NCBI GenBank assembly: GCA_965228855.1
Contig: CBDDIJ010000003.1
Span: 2,624,001-2,688,000 of the forward strand
Length of the DNA: 64,000 bases
Source: Candidatus Obscuribacterales bacterium
GTDB lineage: Bacteria > Cyanobacteriota > Vampirovibrionia > Obscuribacterales > Obscuribacteraceae
Direction: 5' to 3'
Part shown: positions 39,001 to 51,000 of the stretch, piece by piece
How the letters are laid out: each line of letters begins with the position of its first letter
How positions within the stretch are numbered: the stretch's first letter is position 1
Program-made: the position numbers

Positions 39001-42000
39001 GTGTTTTGAACCCGACGACCGGCGGCTCGGCATCACGCTAGAACTTCTTTCCGAAATTTACTACATGACCCAAGAGTATTATCGAGGCGCGCCCGTCATC
39101 AGGCGTTTGCTTCAGATGTATATTCGCTGTCTGGGTCCGGACCATCTGGATACAGGCACGGTCACGCACAACGCAGCCATGCTTTACCACTCCTGGGCGA
39201 AGTATGACGAAGCTGAACCGTTTTATGTTCAGGCGCTTCGCATCAAGAAAAACCGCTTGGGACGCGCCCACCCGCAAGTGATGACCCTTCTCGGTCATTA
39301 CATACAACTTCTGTACCAAACAAATCGCGTCAAAGAAGCCGAGGAACTGAAAGCGACAGCGATCGCAGTTTCCTCCGGACGCTTCACGCGTTCCGGTCAG
39401 TGGAAAGCAATGCCACCCCCGCAAGACGCAGCCCTCGCCGGCAAGAAAGACGAAGAGTAGGAAGAAAAAAATGTCCTACTATAATTTCTAAGAGCTGACA
39501 AGCCCCGAGAGTGCCTCAGAACAAACGTTTCGGGCTCACCTTCTTTCTTCGAGGCCGCTCTTGTCTATCAGGCAATGACGGAATTTGGGAAATCCGGCAT
39601 TCTGTCGTAGACAGCCCCTCCTACTACATTTCCTAAACACCCCTTCCTACTATATTTCCTAAGAAGTAACGAATCCCGAGAGTGAATCAGGACAATCGTT
39701 TAAGGATTCTCTGACTTCCTCGACGGAGTTGTTGTCTATCAGGCGATGCCGGAATTTGGAAAATCCGGCATTCTGTCGTAGACACTTACGGATCCGACCT
39801 CCCAGCGGACTACGTTTGACTGGCAAGTGTGCAGGAGATGATCATCTTTGCATCGATTTCGGATCGGATTTCTGCACATTCGAACCTCAGTCACCGATTA
39901 GGCGAACCGCAGTCGCCGATTAAGCGAACCAAAGTCGCCAATTTCGGATTTCAGATGCCGGAATTTGCTAATCCGGCATTCTGACGTAGTCACTTACGAA
40001 TCCGACCTCTCAGCGGACTACGTTTGACTGGCAAGTGTGCAGGAGATGATCATCTTTGCATCGATTTCGGATCGGATTTCTGCACATTCGAACCTCAGTC
40101 GCCGATTAGGCGAACCAAAGTCGCCAATTAGTCGCCGATTAAGCGTTCACACCACGCTCGCGAGAGATGCGACGAACATCAGACTGAACTTTGCGGCGGT
40201 AATCGCCGTGGATGTTGCGCCTGTCTTTGCCCCATTTGCCTTCTTCGGGAATACTCTCGACTTGAAATTTCAAGTTCTTGACCGTGTGACCCATTCCGAT
40301 TGCATCCGATGCACCTTGCGAAAGATCAATGACGCGGCTGTGAACTTTCTCGCCGCTACCGTCCGGACGCTCAACTTTTCGGCCGGCGAAGGGACCATGA
40401 TCGGTAACGACCACGCGAATTTCTCTGCCGTTATCAGGGTTAGTCACTTTCAGCACTGTGCCGAAAGGGAATTCTCTGCTGGCTGCAGTCAACTCGTACT
40501 TGTTGAACGGCAGTCCTGATGCCGTTTCACGTCCACTCCTGTACATAGAGGTCGTCCCCTCGAATCGATCCCCTTCGTTGTATCTCTTCAGAAACGGGCT
40601 TTTGAAGGCGCCTTCGGGTTTCTCACGAGAGGGACTAGAGTCATCGCTTCTTGGTTCTGGATTGACAGTCGGCTCTGGATTTATATCCGGTCGCCGCTCA
40701 GGCTTAGGCGCAGGTTCCTCCCGACGACGCGGAGCCGGCTTTTCATCCCGCTCTCGGCGAGGACGCTTATGTTCGGGTTGAGCGCTTGGCTCGAATTCCG
40801 CCGAGATCAAACGCTCGCGAATGCGATTGCGAAGACCCTCGTCTTGAATTGAATTTAAAACCTTTTCGACGTTTTGTTGCGTCAAAAGCGCGTCTCCGCG
40901 GCTCAGAACGTTACCATCACCATGTTCAGGATTAGATTTCCATTCTGATTTCAGAGCATTCGTAAAAGCCTTCTTCTCCTCATGACTAAAACCGTCGCCG
41001 AGAAGACGCGATGCAACCTGGTGATAGCCTTCTTTTTTACGAACCTTCGCAGCATCGAGTGTGTTGGTCTTCAGTTCGGTTGCCACCGCTGCCGGTGCGT
41101 CCTCCGGCTTCACAACTTCCGGTGCGGCGGCCCGCGCATCTCCCGGATCGGCTTCTCTGGGCGGCGTGGCTTTCTTTCCGGGCTCATCGGTGGAACCGGC
41201 TATGACATTGCCTTTCTCATCAGTTACGGCGACATCCGGCAGCGTGATCCCATCTCTTTTCGCGAACGCACCCATGATGTCCACAGGTTTGCCAGCAGCA
41301 AGATCAGCGACCGAGTTCGAGTCGAATTCCGGCAGTTTTCCAGTCGGGCCGAGTTCGCAGCGAGGGTCGTATTTGAAAACATCTTTGACTTGAGCAGGGT
41401 CGGAAAGGTCGACTCCAAGATTGGTTGCGCCACTTTTGGGCGTGTTTACCTCAGCGACACCGTCGCTGTGCTTCTGCACTTCAGATCCCATAAGGGTGAG
41501 ACCTCAATATTCATGGTAAGGGGGGTCGGGCACCATTTAAGATACCAACCCATCGTTACGGCCCCGTGACATAAGCAGAGCGCAAGCTTCCTGAAACCAG
41601 AGCCTGTCCCTTTCTCCCCGTATTCTTACGGCTCCGACAGCTTGAACAAACGAAAAACCCGGGCAACAGCCCAGGTTCTTCTCTACCCCTCAGTGATTAA
41701 GTCTTCGATACCCCAACCATTTCGAATCGGTTTAAAACCGAATCGAATCTTGGTCCAGGTCCGCACACGCGACGAGTCCCTTACCTCATCGCATATGCAA
41801 ATTCCTTCAGGTGCGCTTTACTGCACATTTTTTACTGGTTCAAATCGAAATTCGCTTTGATATTTATTTGAGCCTGTTCTGCTACGCAGTGATTGCGTGC
41901 GGCGTAACCGGCACAACACCTGCTGCAGGAACGAACGTGCCTTCCGTAACATTGTCCGCCGTTTGTGGGAACAAGTTGAGAGTGCGACACTCGGCATTCT

Positions 42001-48000: not shown

Positions 48001-51000
48001 ATCCGTTGATGACGAATGTACCGCGGTCGGTGATGACGGGCATGTCTGCGATGTAGCATTTCGACTTGCGCAGTTCACCAGTTACGGTATCACGCAACCA
48101 TGCTTCCATCATCAGACGACGAGCGTGAGTCATGTTGGTCTTTCGAGCTTGCTCTGCGGAATTCGGATATCCGGAATCCGGAGCATAGTCTTCGAACCAC
48201 CATTTGACTTTGCCATCTGGTCCGACAAAAGTAAGTTCAAATCTGGGGGAGAGGTCACTCGAGATGGGCGAGATTTCAGCGAAGAGATTACCAATTGTCT
48301 CTTCGAGGAAACGCCGATAAGAACGTCTCGGGAACTCTGCCAAATCTGGTGCTTGGAAAAAGAAACTCATTAGTTGCCACCAGCCTTAGCGTCTTCCGTG
48401 TTGGTTGTAGTTCCGTCGTTATTAGACATTACTGACCTTTTGTGAGTAGCTAGAGCCCGCGCCAAGTCATCGGCGTAGGTCTTGATTCCTGGCTTCAATG
48501 CACTTGCTATTCTGAATTCGGTGACTGCTTCGCTTATTCTTCCTGCTGCCATCAGGTTGACGGCTAGTCGGTGGTGATTTGAAGCATTCTCCAGGTCTGT
48601 CGCTACCACATCTCTTAAAATTGCCACCGCCGCCATATGATCTTTTCGAGATTCGGCTTGGGTCACTTCGATGAGCTTTGGGTCTTCCTGAGTGGTTGCG
48701 GAACCCGTCCCAGTTGGAACATTTCCATTATCGTTACCGGGAGCCCCGCCGTAAATGGTGGAATCCACCTGTCCAGTGGGAATACTACGTACTCCATTTT
48801 CGGCTCCCATCGGCTGGGCATTTCCGGGTTGAACAGCTACCTGGTTCGGAGCAAAATTTTGTTGAGGTCGAAAACTGGCCGCAGTCGGAGCGACACCACC
48901 GCCAGGAGCTCCCTCGTAAACGCCTTTGTTCATCTGTGGCGGCACGCCGAAGTTGTTGGTCGCCATCTGCGACGCGCCGAAACTTTGCGGTGCAACACCA
49001 CCTTGCGGATTCACTCCAGTGGGCGCCATACCGTTTGGAACCATCCCGTTTGGAACCATACCGTTGGGAGCCACGCCTGTCATCATCGGAGATTGAACTG
49101 GTGCACGGTTCTGCATGTTCATGGGCGAACCCATCTGCATACCGGGTTGGGGCATCCCTTGCGGAGGCATACCCTGTTGCATCTGCTGCGGCATACCCAT
49201 GGGAGCGCCCATATGCATGCCTGGCGCCATGCCCTGCGACATGTTTTGAGGCATGCCCGTTGACATGTTTTGCGGCATTCCTTGTGGCATTTGCTGAGGT
49301 ATATGCTGCGGAGGACGCTGAGTCATTTGCGGCGGCATTGCGGCGCCGCCAGGTTTAGATCCTGAATTCTGCATCTCCTTCATACGGGCTGCAGCTTCTT
49401 TGTTTTTCTCCGGGTCTATCAGAACGCATGTGAGATAAGCCTGGTGTGCGCCTTTGTAATCGCCGACAGCTTCCAGACACTCTCCCAGAAGAAACTGATA
49501 ACGCGCATTGCGAGGCTCAATCATGACAGCCTGAGACACTTCAGCCAGTGCCTCTTTGCGCAGTCCTTGCGAGAACAAAGTCTCGGCGGCTTTCTTATGC
49601 TTCTCCGCTCGGCCGTGTTGATATGATTTTTGCAGACTGGCTCTGCCGTCGGCCAGTCCGGGATGGTTGGCATTTATGACTTCCAGTTTCTTATACTCAG
49701 CTTCGGCACCGGCATAGTCGCCAGTCAACTGGAGAGCGCCTGCGTACCCGAGGTGGAAGTCCGGGTTCAGCGGATTCTTCGCTACTTGCTTGCGCCATAT
49801 CTCAACCAGTTGAGAGCCGGCCAGAGCATCAGTGTCGTCGAGAATGACGGCTTTGCGAAGCAATGCAGCTGCGCCTGTTTCATCTTTCTGGAGTAGCTTC
49901 ATGATGCCGAGCTGACGTTGTGCCGGTCCGTAGTTGGGATCTTTGACTGCCGCCTGCTGGTAGCATTGCAACGCTTGCCCTGTCTGTCCCCAGCGGTACT
50001 GCAAGTCTCCGAATTTCACGTAAACTTTTGCCGACGGGTCAATCTCCATCGCCTGTTTGTACTCGACGTAAGCGCCTTCGAGGTCATTAGCGTTGATGAG
50101 CTGATCGCCTATGCCAAGTCGAGCATCTGCATCGACCGGGTCAATGCCTTGCTTCTCGAGCGCCGAAGAAAGTCCTTTGACCGCCCGAGCGTTGGAATAC
50201 TCAGCGAACAGCGCCTTTCTGTACATGGTTGCGGCGCCTGCCGAATCACCGACCTTCGCTTTGTAGTCGGCGAATGCTGTGCGCGCAGCGCTCAGATTCA
50301 GCTTGTACTGTTTGTTCGTGGGGTCGTACTGCACGGCTTTCTCGTGCATCGCGATGGCGTCGACCCATTTGCCTTGAGAACCAAAAGCGACACCCTGGTT
50401 GTTGAACTCAATGGCATCGGATTTGTATTTCGCATACGTCTCGGTACGCTTCTTGTCGGCTTTTTCACGAGCCGCTTCTGCCTCTTTCTTGGCGAGTTCA
50501 GCGTCTGCAGCCTTTTTGGCTTCGTCTTCTTTCTGCTGTTTCTCGAGATCACGATAATCAGGTCGTCTCTTGAAACGGCTGAGCGCAGGTGCATGGTACT
50601 GCGCGTCGTTTTCAAAATCTTTTTCACCGCGGCTCGACTGAGTGTCAGCGCTGGCGCGCGGTAGCGGTTTTGCGTTTAGCTTCGTAGCACTGGCTGCTTG
50701 AGAGCAAGAGAGTGAGAGAGTTAACGCCAGAAGAACGAGTGTGAGGGGTTTGCTATACATCAACATTGGAAAAAGAACGGGAGGTTTTGAGGGGTAGTTA
50801 GTCGGCAAACTCGCAACCTCGCTCGGTTCGCCGAATGTGAGCCCAGCTTAAGGTTATACGACGGCATAGTCCATTGGGGGATATCCCACCCCCTTCGTAA
50901 ATCTCCCACAATTCACATTAAAATTGCGAAGCCGCAACGCAAGTGAATTCCGACAGACGTTTTCAAAACCGAAAAATTTTACGGACGATTCGCCCACCTT

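What a model noticed while it worked through the whole genome (the two positions that open the first line are those of the whole stretch)
41882..50808. A second, divergent RNA polymerase beta subunit (RpoB2) conserved across Obscuribacteraceae
Besides the canonical rpoB (g05329, next to the split rpoC genes on C5) the genome carries a full-length second rpoB (g04205, 1,263 aa, 42-46% identical to any canonical RpoB) with intact catalytic motifs, in a conserved operon with a secreted TPR protein and three unknown proteins. I read it as an alternative beta subunit that builds a second form of RNA polymerase core in this family. A lineage-wide, anciently diverged alternative core subunit, unlike the recent rifamycin-resistance duplicates of actinomycetes, would be new for bacteria.
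Evidence so far: Pfam Rpb2_2, 3, 45, 6, 7 on g04205; the pairwise alignment keeps FMPWGGYNYEDA, GRHGNKG, NSLGVPSRMNVGQ and GEMEVWA. search_genomes in 106 other Obscuribacterales: about 88 have a match of 69-100% identity and also a canonical RpoB at 42-45%. None of 115 genomes of nine other Vampirovibrionia families has a match above 46%. Gene order TPR (g04206)-rpoB2-g04204-g04203-g04202 and the divergent response regulator g04210 (87-92% identical) are kept in 5 of 5 relatives of other genera fetched; two AAA_15 genes and an RDD gene are an insertion here. No second rpoC or rpoA in the Pfam table. ML tree (LG+G4, 1,071 columns, 9 RpoB2 and 17 canonical RpoB; 2 further rows were wrong ORFs): RpoB2 is one cl [...]
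(Added by a program. Inside this text positions count along the whole contig: contig position 2,624,001 is position 1 of the stretch shown here. "Call 12" and the like, gene names such as g00115 and contig names such as C1 are that model's own, and its searches are not shown. The text may have been shortened before it was handed on; [...] marks where a part breaks off. The agent that wrote the report below was given it as the finding of a first reader that could run no searches.)

Follow-up and report, generated by a model that had tools for sequence, protein, structure and literature searches.

The report
Second RNA polymerase subunit, secretion-linked
Nearly all members of a little-known order of non-photosynthetic relatives of cyanobacteria carry a second, deeply altered copy of a core RNA polymerase subunit, which shares its on-switch with a DNA- and protein-transfer machine and probably builds a second form of the transcribing enzyme for that state.

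Summary
Confirmed and extended. Window 44579-48370 (-) encodes an intact 1,263-aa beta paralog, 42-46% identical to canonical betas, found in 88 of 106 other Obscuribacterales (both families) and not found in the 221 other-family and 75 other-class genomes searched. dN/dS is about 0.05. Catalytic residues are kept in 95 of 95 full-length copies; H1237, W183, fork loop 2, flap-tip charge and the rifamycin pocket are remodelled. Only one alpha and one beta'/gamma set were found.

New here: the last operon gene is a degenerate Replic_Relax (MOBC relaxase) paralog. The operon promoter carries a conserved tandem box (20 of 20 loci). The same box precedes four promoters of a separate order-wide type IV secretion cluster (VirB4, VirD4, relaxase), against 0 of 151 control regions.

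Best reading (0.5): an inducible alternative beta that builds a second core enzyme in the secretion/mating state. Rivals: exported cargo (0.2), decoy (0.13), antibiotic-proof spare (0.12). Origin is unresolved by trees. Assembly, activity and expression are untested. The closest precedent is actinomycete rpoB(R), which is nearly identical to its partner. The scan had not noted this on other DNA.

The parts
50874..50909 (-). Tandem operator box (consensus TGGGA-N5-TACG-N7-TGGGA-N5-CCCAAT), two half-palindromic sites about 20 bp apart, abutting the -35-like hexamer; putative activator site
   Evidence: Found in 20 of 20 operon upstream regions; a matrix trained only on these finds it at four T4SS-cluster promoters
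50845..50873 (-). Putative sigma70-type promoter: -35-like TGGACT (50873-50868), 17-nt spacer, -10-like TAAGCT (50850-50845)
   Evidence: Read from sequence; -10-like hexamer matched in 17 of 20 loci; not picked up by the generic consensus scan, so inferred from conservation
48370..50808 (-). TPR protein g04206, 812 aa, signal-peptide-like N-terminus (by eye), Gln/Pro/Met-rich linker; its stop overlaps the rpoB2 start by one base
44579..48370 (-). rpoB2 (g04205), divergent RNA polymerase beta, 1,263 aa; core residues 1-1058
44582..45193 (-). RpoB2-specific C-terminal extension (about residues 1060-1263): conserved segment with LEIPAGDY, acidic linker, conserved DFPSLSEL helix-like motif
   Evidence: no other protein of the genome matched its profile
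43613..44578 (-). g04204, 321 aa, signal-peptide-like start, two hydrophobic helices (about 212-265); N-terminus weakly similar to the first two genes of the T4SS cluster; pilin likeness is only a lead
   Evidence: (E 5e-4, 5e-3)
42748..43515 (-). g04203, 255 aa, signal-peptide-like start, probably helical, no family
41882..42688 (-). g04202, 268 aa, degenerate Replic_Relax/MOBC-like protein: near-invariant N-terminal 110 residues, nuclease-like C-terminal domain lacking the E-x-D catalytic pair
41652..41681 (-). Intrinsic-terminator-like hairpin (13 bp plus T run) closing the operon before rlpA
   Evidence: consensus match only
55237..56100 (+). Divergent NarL/LuxR-type response regulator g04210, 82-93% identical across the order; candidate reader of the box (inferred)
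51008..54870 (-). Local insertion between operon and regulator (two AAA-like ATPase ORFs and a TPR-RDD gene); not part of the conserved unit
   Evidence: AAA genes in 0 of 19, RDD in 2 of 19 relatives

Best explanation
RpoB2 is an inducible alternative beta subunit. In a contact or mating state, the neighbouring NarL-type regulator binds a tandem box and switches on both the rpoB2 operon and a chromosomal conjugation-type type IV secretion cluster. RpoB2 then competes with the housekeeping beta for the single alpha, gamma and beta' subunits and builds a second, catalytically able core. That core has weakened contacts to the non-template strand, a re-charged sigma-4-binding flap tip and a re-charged Mfd/CarD docking strand, so it should ignore most housekeeping promoters and work only where a helper places it. 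The likely helper is g04202, the one clearly cytoplasmic operon partner, a nuclease-dead relaxase paralog. Its job would be RNA synthesis tied to the transfer state: a second-tier gene programme, or transcripts or primers on transferred DNA. Shown: gene, distribution, selection, residue pattern, shared box, relaxase ancestry of g04202. Inferred: who binds the box, assembly, activity, the role of g04202 and the targets.
For: K1065, K1073, D814, R1106, R678, Q688 and GQRxGEMEVW motifs kept in 95 of 95 full-length proteins. dN/dS 0.047-0.066 in 6 comparisons; mean identity 80% across 153 genome pairs against 78% for beta'. One beta' catalytic domain and one alpha found in G000. Alpha-side motifs DMP and DGRTG kept (their role is recalled). 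Fixed changes W183P, D199P, R371K, R470Q, R542A, L538I, V547M at published non-template contacts (list from 10.1101/2023.06.26.546588); W183A cuts promoter-complex half-life fivefold but leaves elongation intact (PMC4499132). Flap-tip net charge 0 to -4 in 21 of 21; beta1 strand -3 to +1/+2. Box in 20 of 20 operon promoters. With a matrix trained on those alone: x261 5 of 5 at 10 bits or more, DUF2225 5 of 7 at 13.9 or more, x1915 5 of 6 genomes at 11.6 or more, x278 2 of 3 at 15.8 or more; 0 of 33 entries for six internal cluster genes above 8; 0 of 151 control regions at 12 or more. g04202 in 65 of 65 family genomes and 0 of 153 outside the order; VirD4 in 65 of 67 and 0 of 153; regulator in 43 of 43 and 0 of 116.
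Against: 75 of 327 otherwise near-invariant beta columns are fixed as other residues and 43 more vary. These include H1237Q, one of three primer-phosphate contacts (10.1101/2021.04.06.438613), N684G, and the clamp-side changes D1241H, H1244N, PESF to TAAF and a two-residue insertion before switch 3, which could weaken catalysis or fit with beta'. The G+2 pocket (R151, D446, R451) is kept, so non-template contacts are only partly lost. The enrichment of changes there depends on the list: p 0.005 with my shorter recalled active-site list, p 0.085 with the longer one. No sigma factor tracks rpoB2: G001 and G002 keep the same six sigma types (30 of 36 matches fetched). Three of five operon products look like envelope proteins, which fits an export module better than a transcription module. 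G001 keeps the regulator and T4SS genes without the operon in a contiguous 39 kb, of which 15 kb were read, so secretion genes do not need RpoB2. No DprA, SSB, RecA or Com family appeared among 32 box-bearing candidates scanned.
Confidence: 0.5

Rival explanations
1. RpoB2 is cargo of the type IV system. The operon is an export module (TPR, g04204 and g04203 in the envelope; g04202 as a relaxase-like pilot to VirD4), and RpoB2 is delivered to a mate or prey cell, where it joins resident alpha and beta' to transcribe or prime incoming DNA, or to derail host transcription.
For: Shared box with the T4SS cluster. g04202 is a paralog of the cluster's relaxase (232 columns, E 1.6e-4). g04204's N-terminus resembles the first cluster genes. 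Other box-bearing genes are mostly large proteins without a family (14 of 32) or LysM, LRV/HEAT and kinase proteins. RpoB2 has a clade-specific 200-residue tail. Some relaxases carry primase domains needed for transfer (PMC12857230 section 17).
Against: The tail's profile matches no other protein in the genome, so it is not a shared signal; the canonical beta also has an acidic tail. Pilin likeness of g04204 is weak (Atlas 0.76-0.78; hhalign probability 0.5; 0 of 16 members hit a pilin family). Cross-species assembly of a 44%-identical beta is uncertain (inference).
Confidence: 0.2
2. RpoB2 is a decoy or brake: it binds alpha, beta' or sigma factors and forms a poorly active core that shuts down vegetative transcription during the secretion state.
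For: H1237Q, N684G, D1241H, H1244N, E1279Q and loss of fork-loop-2 arginines are fixed; loss of W183 destabilises promoter complexes. An earlier scan note reports a catalytically dead beta' paralog in planctomycetes (e1-3103282, unchecked).
Against: K1065, K1073, D814, R1106, R678 and Q688 are invariant in 95 of 95, which a pure decoy would not need; the most conserved 50-residue window is 951-1000 (0.98), next to the active centre.
Confidence: 0.13
3. RpoB2 is an antibiotic- or toxin-proof spare beta, as in Nocardia and Nonomuraea, induced during contact with competitors.
For: Rifamycin pocket carries 574Y in 21 of 21, plus S509N, Q510P, S512V, S531T, L533F, T563S; 574Y is in a published panel of resistance alleles (PMC12337354).
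Against: Divergence is protein-wide (16-64% consensus identity per 50-residue window of the core), whereas RpoB(R) differs from RpoB(S) by six deleted and five substituted residues (PMC5431353). Q513, D516, H526 and R529 are kept. A spare should keep W183, the gate loop and flap-tip charge to read housekeeping promoters.
Confidence: 0.12
4. Artefact, contamination or decaying pseudogene.
For: G000 has 5.8% estimated contamination; all genomes are metagenome assemblies.
Against: Same operon in 68 of 69 loci; one 18-kb contig piece of run X2 spans it without differences (X2 may be the source sample); dN/dS about 0.05; GC 52-54% like its surroundings.
Confidence: 0.01

Closest known systems
Actinomycete duplicated rpoB: Nonomuraea rpoB(S)/rpoB(R), Nocardia rpoB2 (PMC5431353; PMC12337354)
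   Same: Two beta genes in one genome, one beta'; the second copy carries a rifamycin-pocket change and, in Nonomuraea, acts as a global regulatory switch.
   Different: RpoB(R) differs by six deleted and five substituted residues; RpoB2 shares 42-46% identity. RpoB2 is order-wide, has its own five-gene operon with envelope and relaxase-like genes, keeps H526, and shares a box with a type IV secretion cluster.
Canonical cyanobacterial-type RNA polymerase beta (PDB 8syi_C; TIGR02013, NF001616)
   Same: Whole domain layout 5-1058, no large lineage insertions, catalytic lysines, D814, R1106, switch-3 core.
   Different: Outside the rpoB-rpoC1-rpoC2 operon; H1237Q, N684G, W183P, D199P, Gly-rich gate loop, fork loop 2 without R540/R542, acidic flap tip, new lobe insertion and 200-residue tail.
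MOBC relaxase / Replic_Relax PF13814 (TraX of pAD1; PMC5357655, PMC3424549, PMC12857230)
   Same: g04202 has the helix-turn-helix-like N-terminus and a restriction-nuclease-like C-terminal fold, and aligns end to end with the genome's own T4SS-linked Replic_Relax.
   Different: g04202 lacks the E-x-D pair, fails the Pfam cut-off, lies beside rpoB2 and not beside VirD4, and its N-terminus is near-invariant.
Specialised polymerases built from a paralogous second-largest subunit, such as plant Pol IV/V NRPD2 (recalled, no call)
   Same: A duplicated beta-type subunit diverges fast, then is held by selection for a specialised job.
   Different: Eukaryotic, with its own largest subunit; here no second beta' was found.

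Membership tests
Bacterial RNA polymerase beta | Passes curated rpoB models | tested here: met
   TIGR02013 1008 vs 801; NF001616 1055 vs 896
Bacterial RNA polymerase beta | Full domain set including the N-terminal lobes | tested here: met
   Five Pfam domains over cut-off, Rpb2_1 under it; one continuous alignment 5-1058 to 8syi_C
Bacterial RNA polymerase beta | Active-centre K1065, K1073, D814, R1106, R678, Q688 | tested here: met
   95 of 95 full-length proteins; E. coli numbering; roles other than K1065/K1073 recalled
Bacterial RNA polymerase beta | H1237 primer-phosphate contact | tested here: not met
   Gln in 95 of 95; role
Bacterial RNA polymerase beta | Encoded with rpoC as the housekeeping subunit | tested here: not met
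   rpoC1/rpoC2 follow the other rpoB on C5; no rpoC in 20 rpoB2 loci listings
Bacterial RNA polymerase beta | Assembles with alpha and beta' and makes RNA | not testable with these tools
   Needs reconstitution; no complex model was obtained
Actinomycete rpoB(R)/rpoB2 duplicates | Second rpoB beside a canonical copy | tested here: met
Actinomycete rpoB(R)/rpoB2 duplicates | Rifamycin-resistance substitution in the second copy | tested here: met
   574Y in 21 of 21; H526N absent; phenotype untested
Actinomycete rpoB(R)/rpoB2 duplicates | Near-identity to the resident copy | tested here: not met
   43-47% over 1,020 core columns against 11 changed residues in Nonomuraea
Replic_Relax/MOBC (for g04202) | Sequence kinship and HTH plus PD-(D/E)XK-like architecture | tested here: met
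   Profile hits to three PF13814 proteins, E 1.5e-5 to 6.4e-4; Atlas 0.94; hhalign E 1.6e-4 over 232 columns. Fold search alone is middling: 2ewf_A Z 8.0, rmsd 5.4, 178 aligned
Replic_Relax/MOBC (for g04202) | Catalytic D...E-x-D motif | tested here: not met
   First D kept, E-x-D absent in 6 of 6 g04202 rows shown; D and E kept in 8 of 8 family-1 cluster relaxases (E-x-D in 7), E lost in 3 of 3 family-2 ones; residue roles recalled
Replic_Relax/MOBC (for g04202) | Pfam PF13814 cut-off | tested here: not met
   No hit for g04202; one relative at E 8e-4, under cut-off
VirB2/T4SS pilin (for g04204) | Pilin family match over the hydrophobic hairpin | tested here: inconclusive
   Atlas 0.76-0.78; 0 of 16 members hit; hhalign not significant
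Conjugative T4SS (for the C3 cluster) | VirB4, VirD4 coupling protein and relaxase together | tested here: met
   PF19044, PF02534, PF13814 over cut-off; all NCBIfam matches under cut-off
Conjugative T4SS (for the C3 cluster) | oriT, DNA transfer, mobility | not tested
   No oriT or integrase search was made; conserved gene order and 58-83% VirD4 identity suggest a resident system

The most novel reading that the evidence does not exclude
Obscuribacterales run two RNA polymerase cores: a housekeeping one, and a dedicated one built on RpoB2, switched on with a domesticated conjugation/secretion machine and aimed by a nuclease-dead relaxase. It works on transferred DNA or a mating-specific gene set, or is itself passed to the partner cell. 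That would be core-subunit exchange as a regulatory principle in bacteria, and the first link of a cellular polymerase subunit to type IV secretion.
Probability: 0.45. Interest if true: 0.93.

Novelty: new variant of a known kind. Interest (0 to 1): 0.82.

Why it matters
Bacteria are taught to change transcription by swapping sigma factors on one core. A selected, order-wide second beta at 44% identity suggests core swapping. It is also a natural experiment on residues thought invariant (H1237, W183, fork loop 2, flap tip), testable in vitro with recombinant subunits and no culture. The shared box reveals an undescribed order-wide secretion regulon in the sister group of photosynthetic cyanobacteria, whose lifestyle is unknown. 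In practice both copies are annotated 'RNA polymerase beta', so rpoB marker trees and resistance surveys of this order can pick the wrong gene.

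Tried and rejected
Expression: no RNA holder listed; run X1, labelled RNA-Seq, covers genes and intergenic DNA evenly and is flagged probably DNA, so there is no information either way. 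Origin by tree: FastTree (62 rows) and LG+C20 (29 of 98 sequences, quick search) put RpoB2 on a very long branch below the phylum; AU tests reject neither RpoB2 with Obscuribacterales beta (p 0.475) nor RpoB2 with oxygenic cyanobacteria (p 0.301). A count of exclusive shared sites favoured the outgroup rows (19 against 1 for the host beta); set aside because those rows were picked by likeness to RpoB2. A hidden second beta': PF00623, tblastn and a gamma profile found only C5; the beta' (RpoC2) profile run did not finish; one other DxDGD-like string at C2:564257 looked like a spurious frame and was not followed. A dedicated sigma: none co-lost. A shared secretion signal in the tail: none. Strict single-stranded-template model: weakened, since the G+2 pocket is kept. 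A wider regulon at 12 bits is not above column-shuffled controls (39 against mean 29, max 48); at 14 and 16 bits it is (28 against 9, 14 against 2.5). Foldseek gave no match under E 0.001 for g04202. Viral contigs: 12 loci, best 44%, no RpoB2-type gene. One search scored only 8,000 candidates and missed closer canonical betas, so it cannot exclude intermediates. rlpA (a DPBB domain) follows g04202 here but in 0 of 19 relatives.

Full report
Observation. Window 44579-48370 (-) is an open 1,263-aa frame. It aligns as one stretch (5-1058) with cyanobacterial beta and passes both rpoB equivalog models. The canonical rpoB lies on C5 before rpoC1 and rpoC2. One beta' catalytic domain and one alpha were found, with 19 sigma70 region-2 matches.

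Distribution. RpoB2-type matches (69-100%) were listed in 88 of 106 other Obscuribacterales and in 72 of 77 family genomes at least 85% complete; three of the five without a listed match still carry g04202, which suggests contig breaks. G003 of the second family has rpoB2, the TPR gene, g04203, g04202 and the regulator on three contigs. Its relative G002 (94.6% at one locus) lacks all of them, gap or loss. G001 keeps the regulator without the operon. None was found in 221 genomes of other families or 75 of other classes; these are samples. Named records with the operon include Candidatus Obscuribacter phosphatis (L263, L264).

Selection and residues. dN/dS is 0.047-0.066 against six relatives (dS near saturation in the farther ones) and 0.007 at the median of 45 pairs within one genus. 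RpoB2 changes about twice as fast as canonical beta and as fast as beta', with correlated distances (r 0.67-0.82), which fits vertical descent. Of 327 columns at least 97% invariant in 55 canonical betas, 209 are kept, 75 are fixed as another residue and 43 vary in 21 RpoB2 (one frameshifted RpoB2 left out). Kept: R529, Q513, R678, Q688, E813, D814, K1065, K1073, R1106, R1269. Changed: H1237Q, N684G, W183P, D199P, gate loop, R540P, R542A, flap tip K900E/R903Q/E908K, beta1 IKE to LRK, the rifamycin pocket including 574Y, and the clamp end. A motif check on 95 full-length proteins agrees. The genome has Mfd; that IKE is its docking strand is recalled.

Operon partners. g04202 is kin to Replic_Relax: Atlas 0.94, profile hits to three PF13814 proteins, a model (pLDDT 74) whose best matches are mostly restriction-type nucleases at middling Z, and an end-to-end alignment to the genome's own Replic_Relax at C3:3042918. 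It lacks the E-x-D pair. PF13814 is the MOBC relaxase family that goes with VirD4 (PMC5357655, passages; PMC3424549, passages; PMC12857230, section 17 and passages). That relaxase ends a cluster at C3:3042918-3065593 with VirD4 and VirB4, whose gene order is kept in the six relatives fetched as far as the stretches reach. VirD4 was found in 65 of 67 order genomes and 0 of 153 others, the relaxase in 66 of 68. g04204 weakly matches the first two cluster genes.

Shared control. A tandem box with a promoter-like element precedes the operon in 20 of 20 loci. A matrix trained only on these scores 10-19 bits at four cluster promoters in most relatives, under 8 at 33 of 33 entries for six internal genes, and under 12 in 151 of 151 control regions. 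In G000, 28 of 5,250 genes score 14 or more against a shuffled mean of 9. Three paralogous large proteins all carry it. Of 32 candidates scanned, 14 have no Pfam family; the rest include LysM, LRV/HEAT, TPR and kinase proteins and several likely chance hits. The divergent NarL-type regulator, with an invariant helix-turn-helix, is restricted to the order; that it reads the box is inference from position and family.

Origin. Trees give a very long stem and cannot place it. Two weaker lines favour duplication in the order's stem. An N-terminal segment is 38 residues in RpoB2, 32 in 21 of 21 host betas, 33 in 4 of 4 from two related families, 27-28 in 30 other phylum sequences and 26-28 in 19 of 20 outgroups. 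Residues 1-460 score 282-301 bits against host betas, 266-285 against other Vampirovibrionia and 249-273 against other classes; the C-terminal half shows no such order. One outgroup row has a similar insertion, so this is not decisive.

Mechanism. The invariant active centre, the single beta' and the cytoplasmic location argue for a second working core (0.5). The remodelled promoter-melting, sigma and Mfd surfaces argue that it is not a plain spare; W183A alone cuts complex half-life fivefold (PMC4499132, passages; contact list from 10.1101/2023.06.26.546588, passages; H1237 from 10.1101/2021.04.06.438613, one passage). The shared box ties it to the secretion state. Export (0.2), decoy (0.13) and antibiotic-proof spare (0.12) remain open.

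Known and new. Two betas in one cell are known from actinomycetes, where the copies are nearly identical (PMC5431353, introduction and passages). A survey of 18,127 species found 91 with more than one rpoB, mainly actinomycetes (PMC12337354, section 6 and passages); its four supplementary files held as text name no Obscuribacter, Melainabacteria or Vampirovibrio, and files or figures not held as text were not seen. Literature searches listed no paper on an Obscuribacterales rpoB paralog or secretion cluster; I saw only listings and abstract starts for these, and most subscription papers are not in the library. Verdict: real, selected, undescribed as far as searched; a new variant of the dual-beta arrangement that would be a new kind of system if the tie to secretion proves functional.

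Noticed in passing
G000:C3:3042918-3065593 (L109, L110): Order-wide chromosomal type IV secretion-like cluster: Replic_Relax/MOBC relaxase, VirD4, VirB4, a 1,915-aa unknown gene, two near-identical small membrane genes (85-91% identical across genera), DUF2225; not found in 153 genomes outside the order.
   Followed up: partly
G000 genome, e.g. C5:1263291, C2:797817, C5:1490118, C2:889791, C3:2949912, C2:2012907: Large proteins without a family or with LysM domains, with polar N-termini, carry the same box upstream; candidate secretion substrates.
   Followed up: partly
G000:C5:110583: Best non-training match of the full tandem box (32.5 bits), upstream of a GAF histidine kinase (L158); candidate sensor for the regulator.
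   Followed up: partly
window 55237-56100: The regulator's receiver domain has CERH where the acidic pocket is expected, and the phospho-acceptor region reads ELDL in G001; it may be an atypical receiver. An ATTGTAAC motif recurs near its start in 9 of 14 intergenic regions.
   Followed up: no
L089-L107: G000 has about 11 group-1/2-like sigma factors by my reading, several divergent.
   Followed up: partly
L203-L205: In the second family the cluster relaxase has lost its catalytic Glu and is only 31-34% identical; VirD4 of G001 is split in two frames.
   Followed up: partly
G019: Two RpoB2-type matches (76% and 75%) in one genome with 8% contamination; probably a mixed bin.
   Followed up: no
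G331, G341, G355, G365, G369, G397, G400: Canonical rpoB of seven genomes of other classes matches in two pieces split near residue 600 within one open frame, as an in-frame insertion would give.
   Followed up: no
window 40139-41491: rlpA-like DPBB gene without a signal-like start sits after the operon terminator here only; relatives have other large genes at this spot.
   Followed up: no
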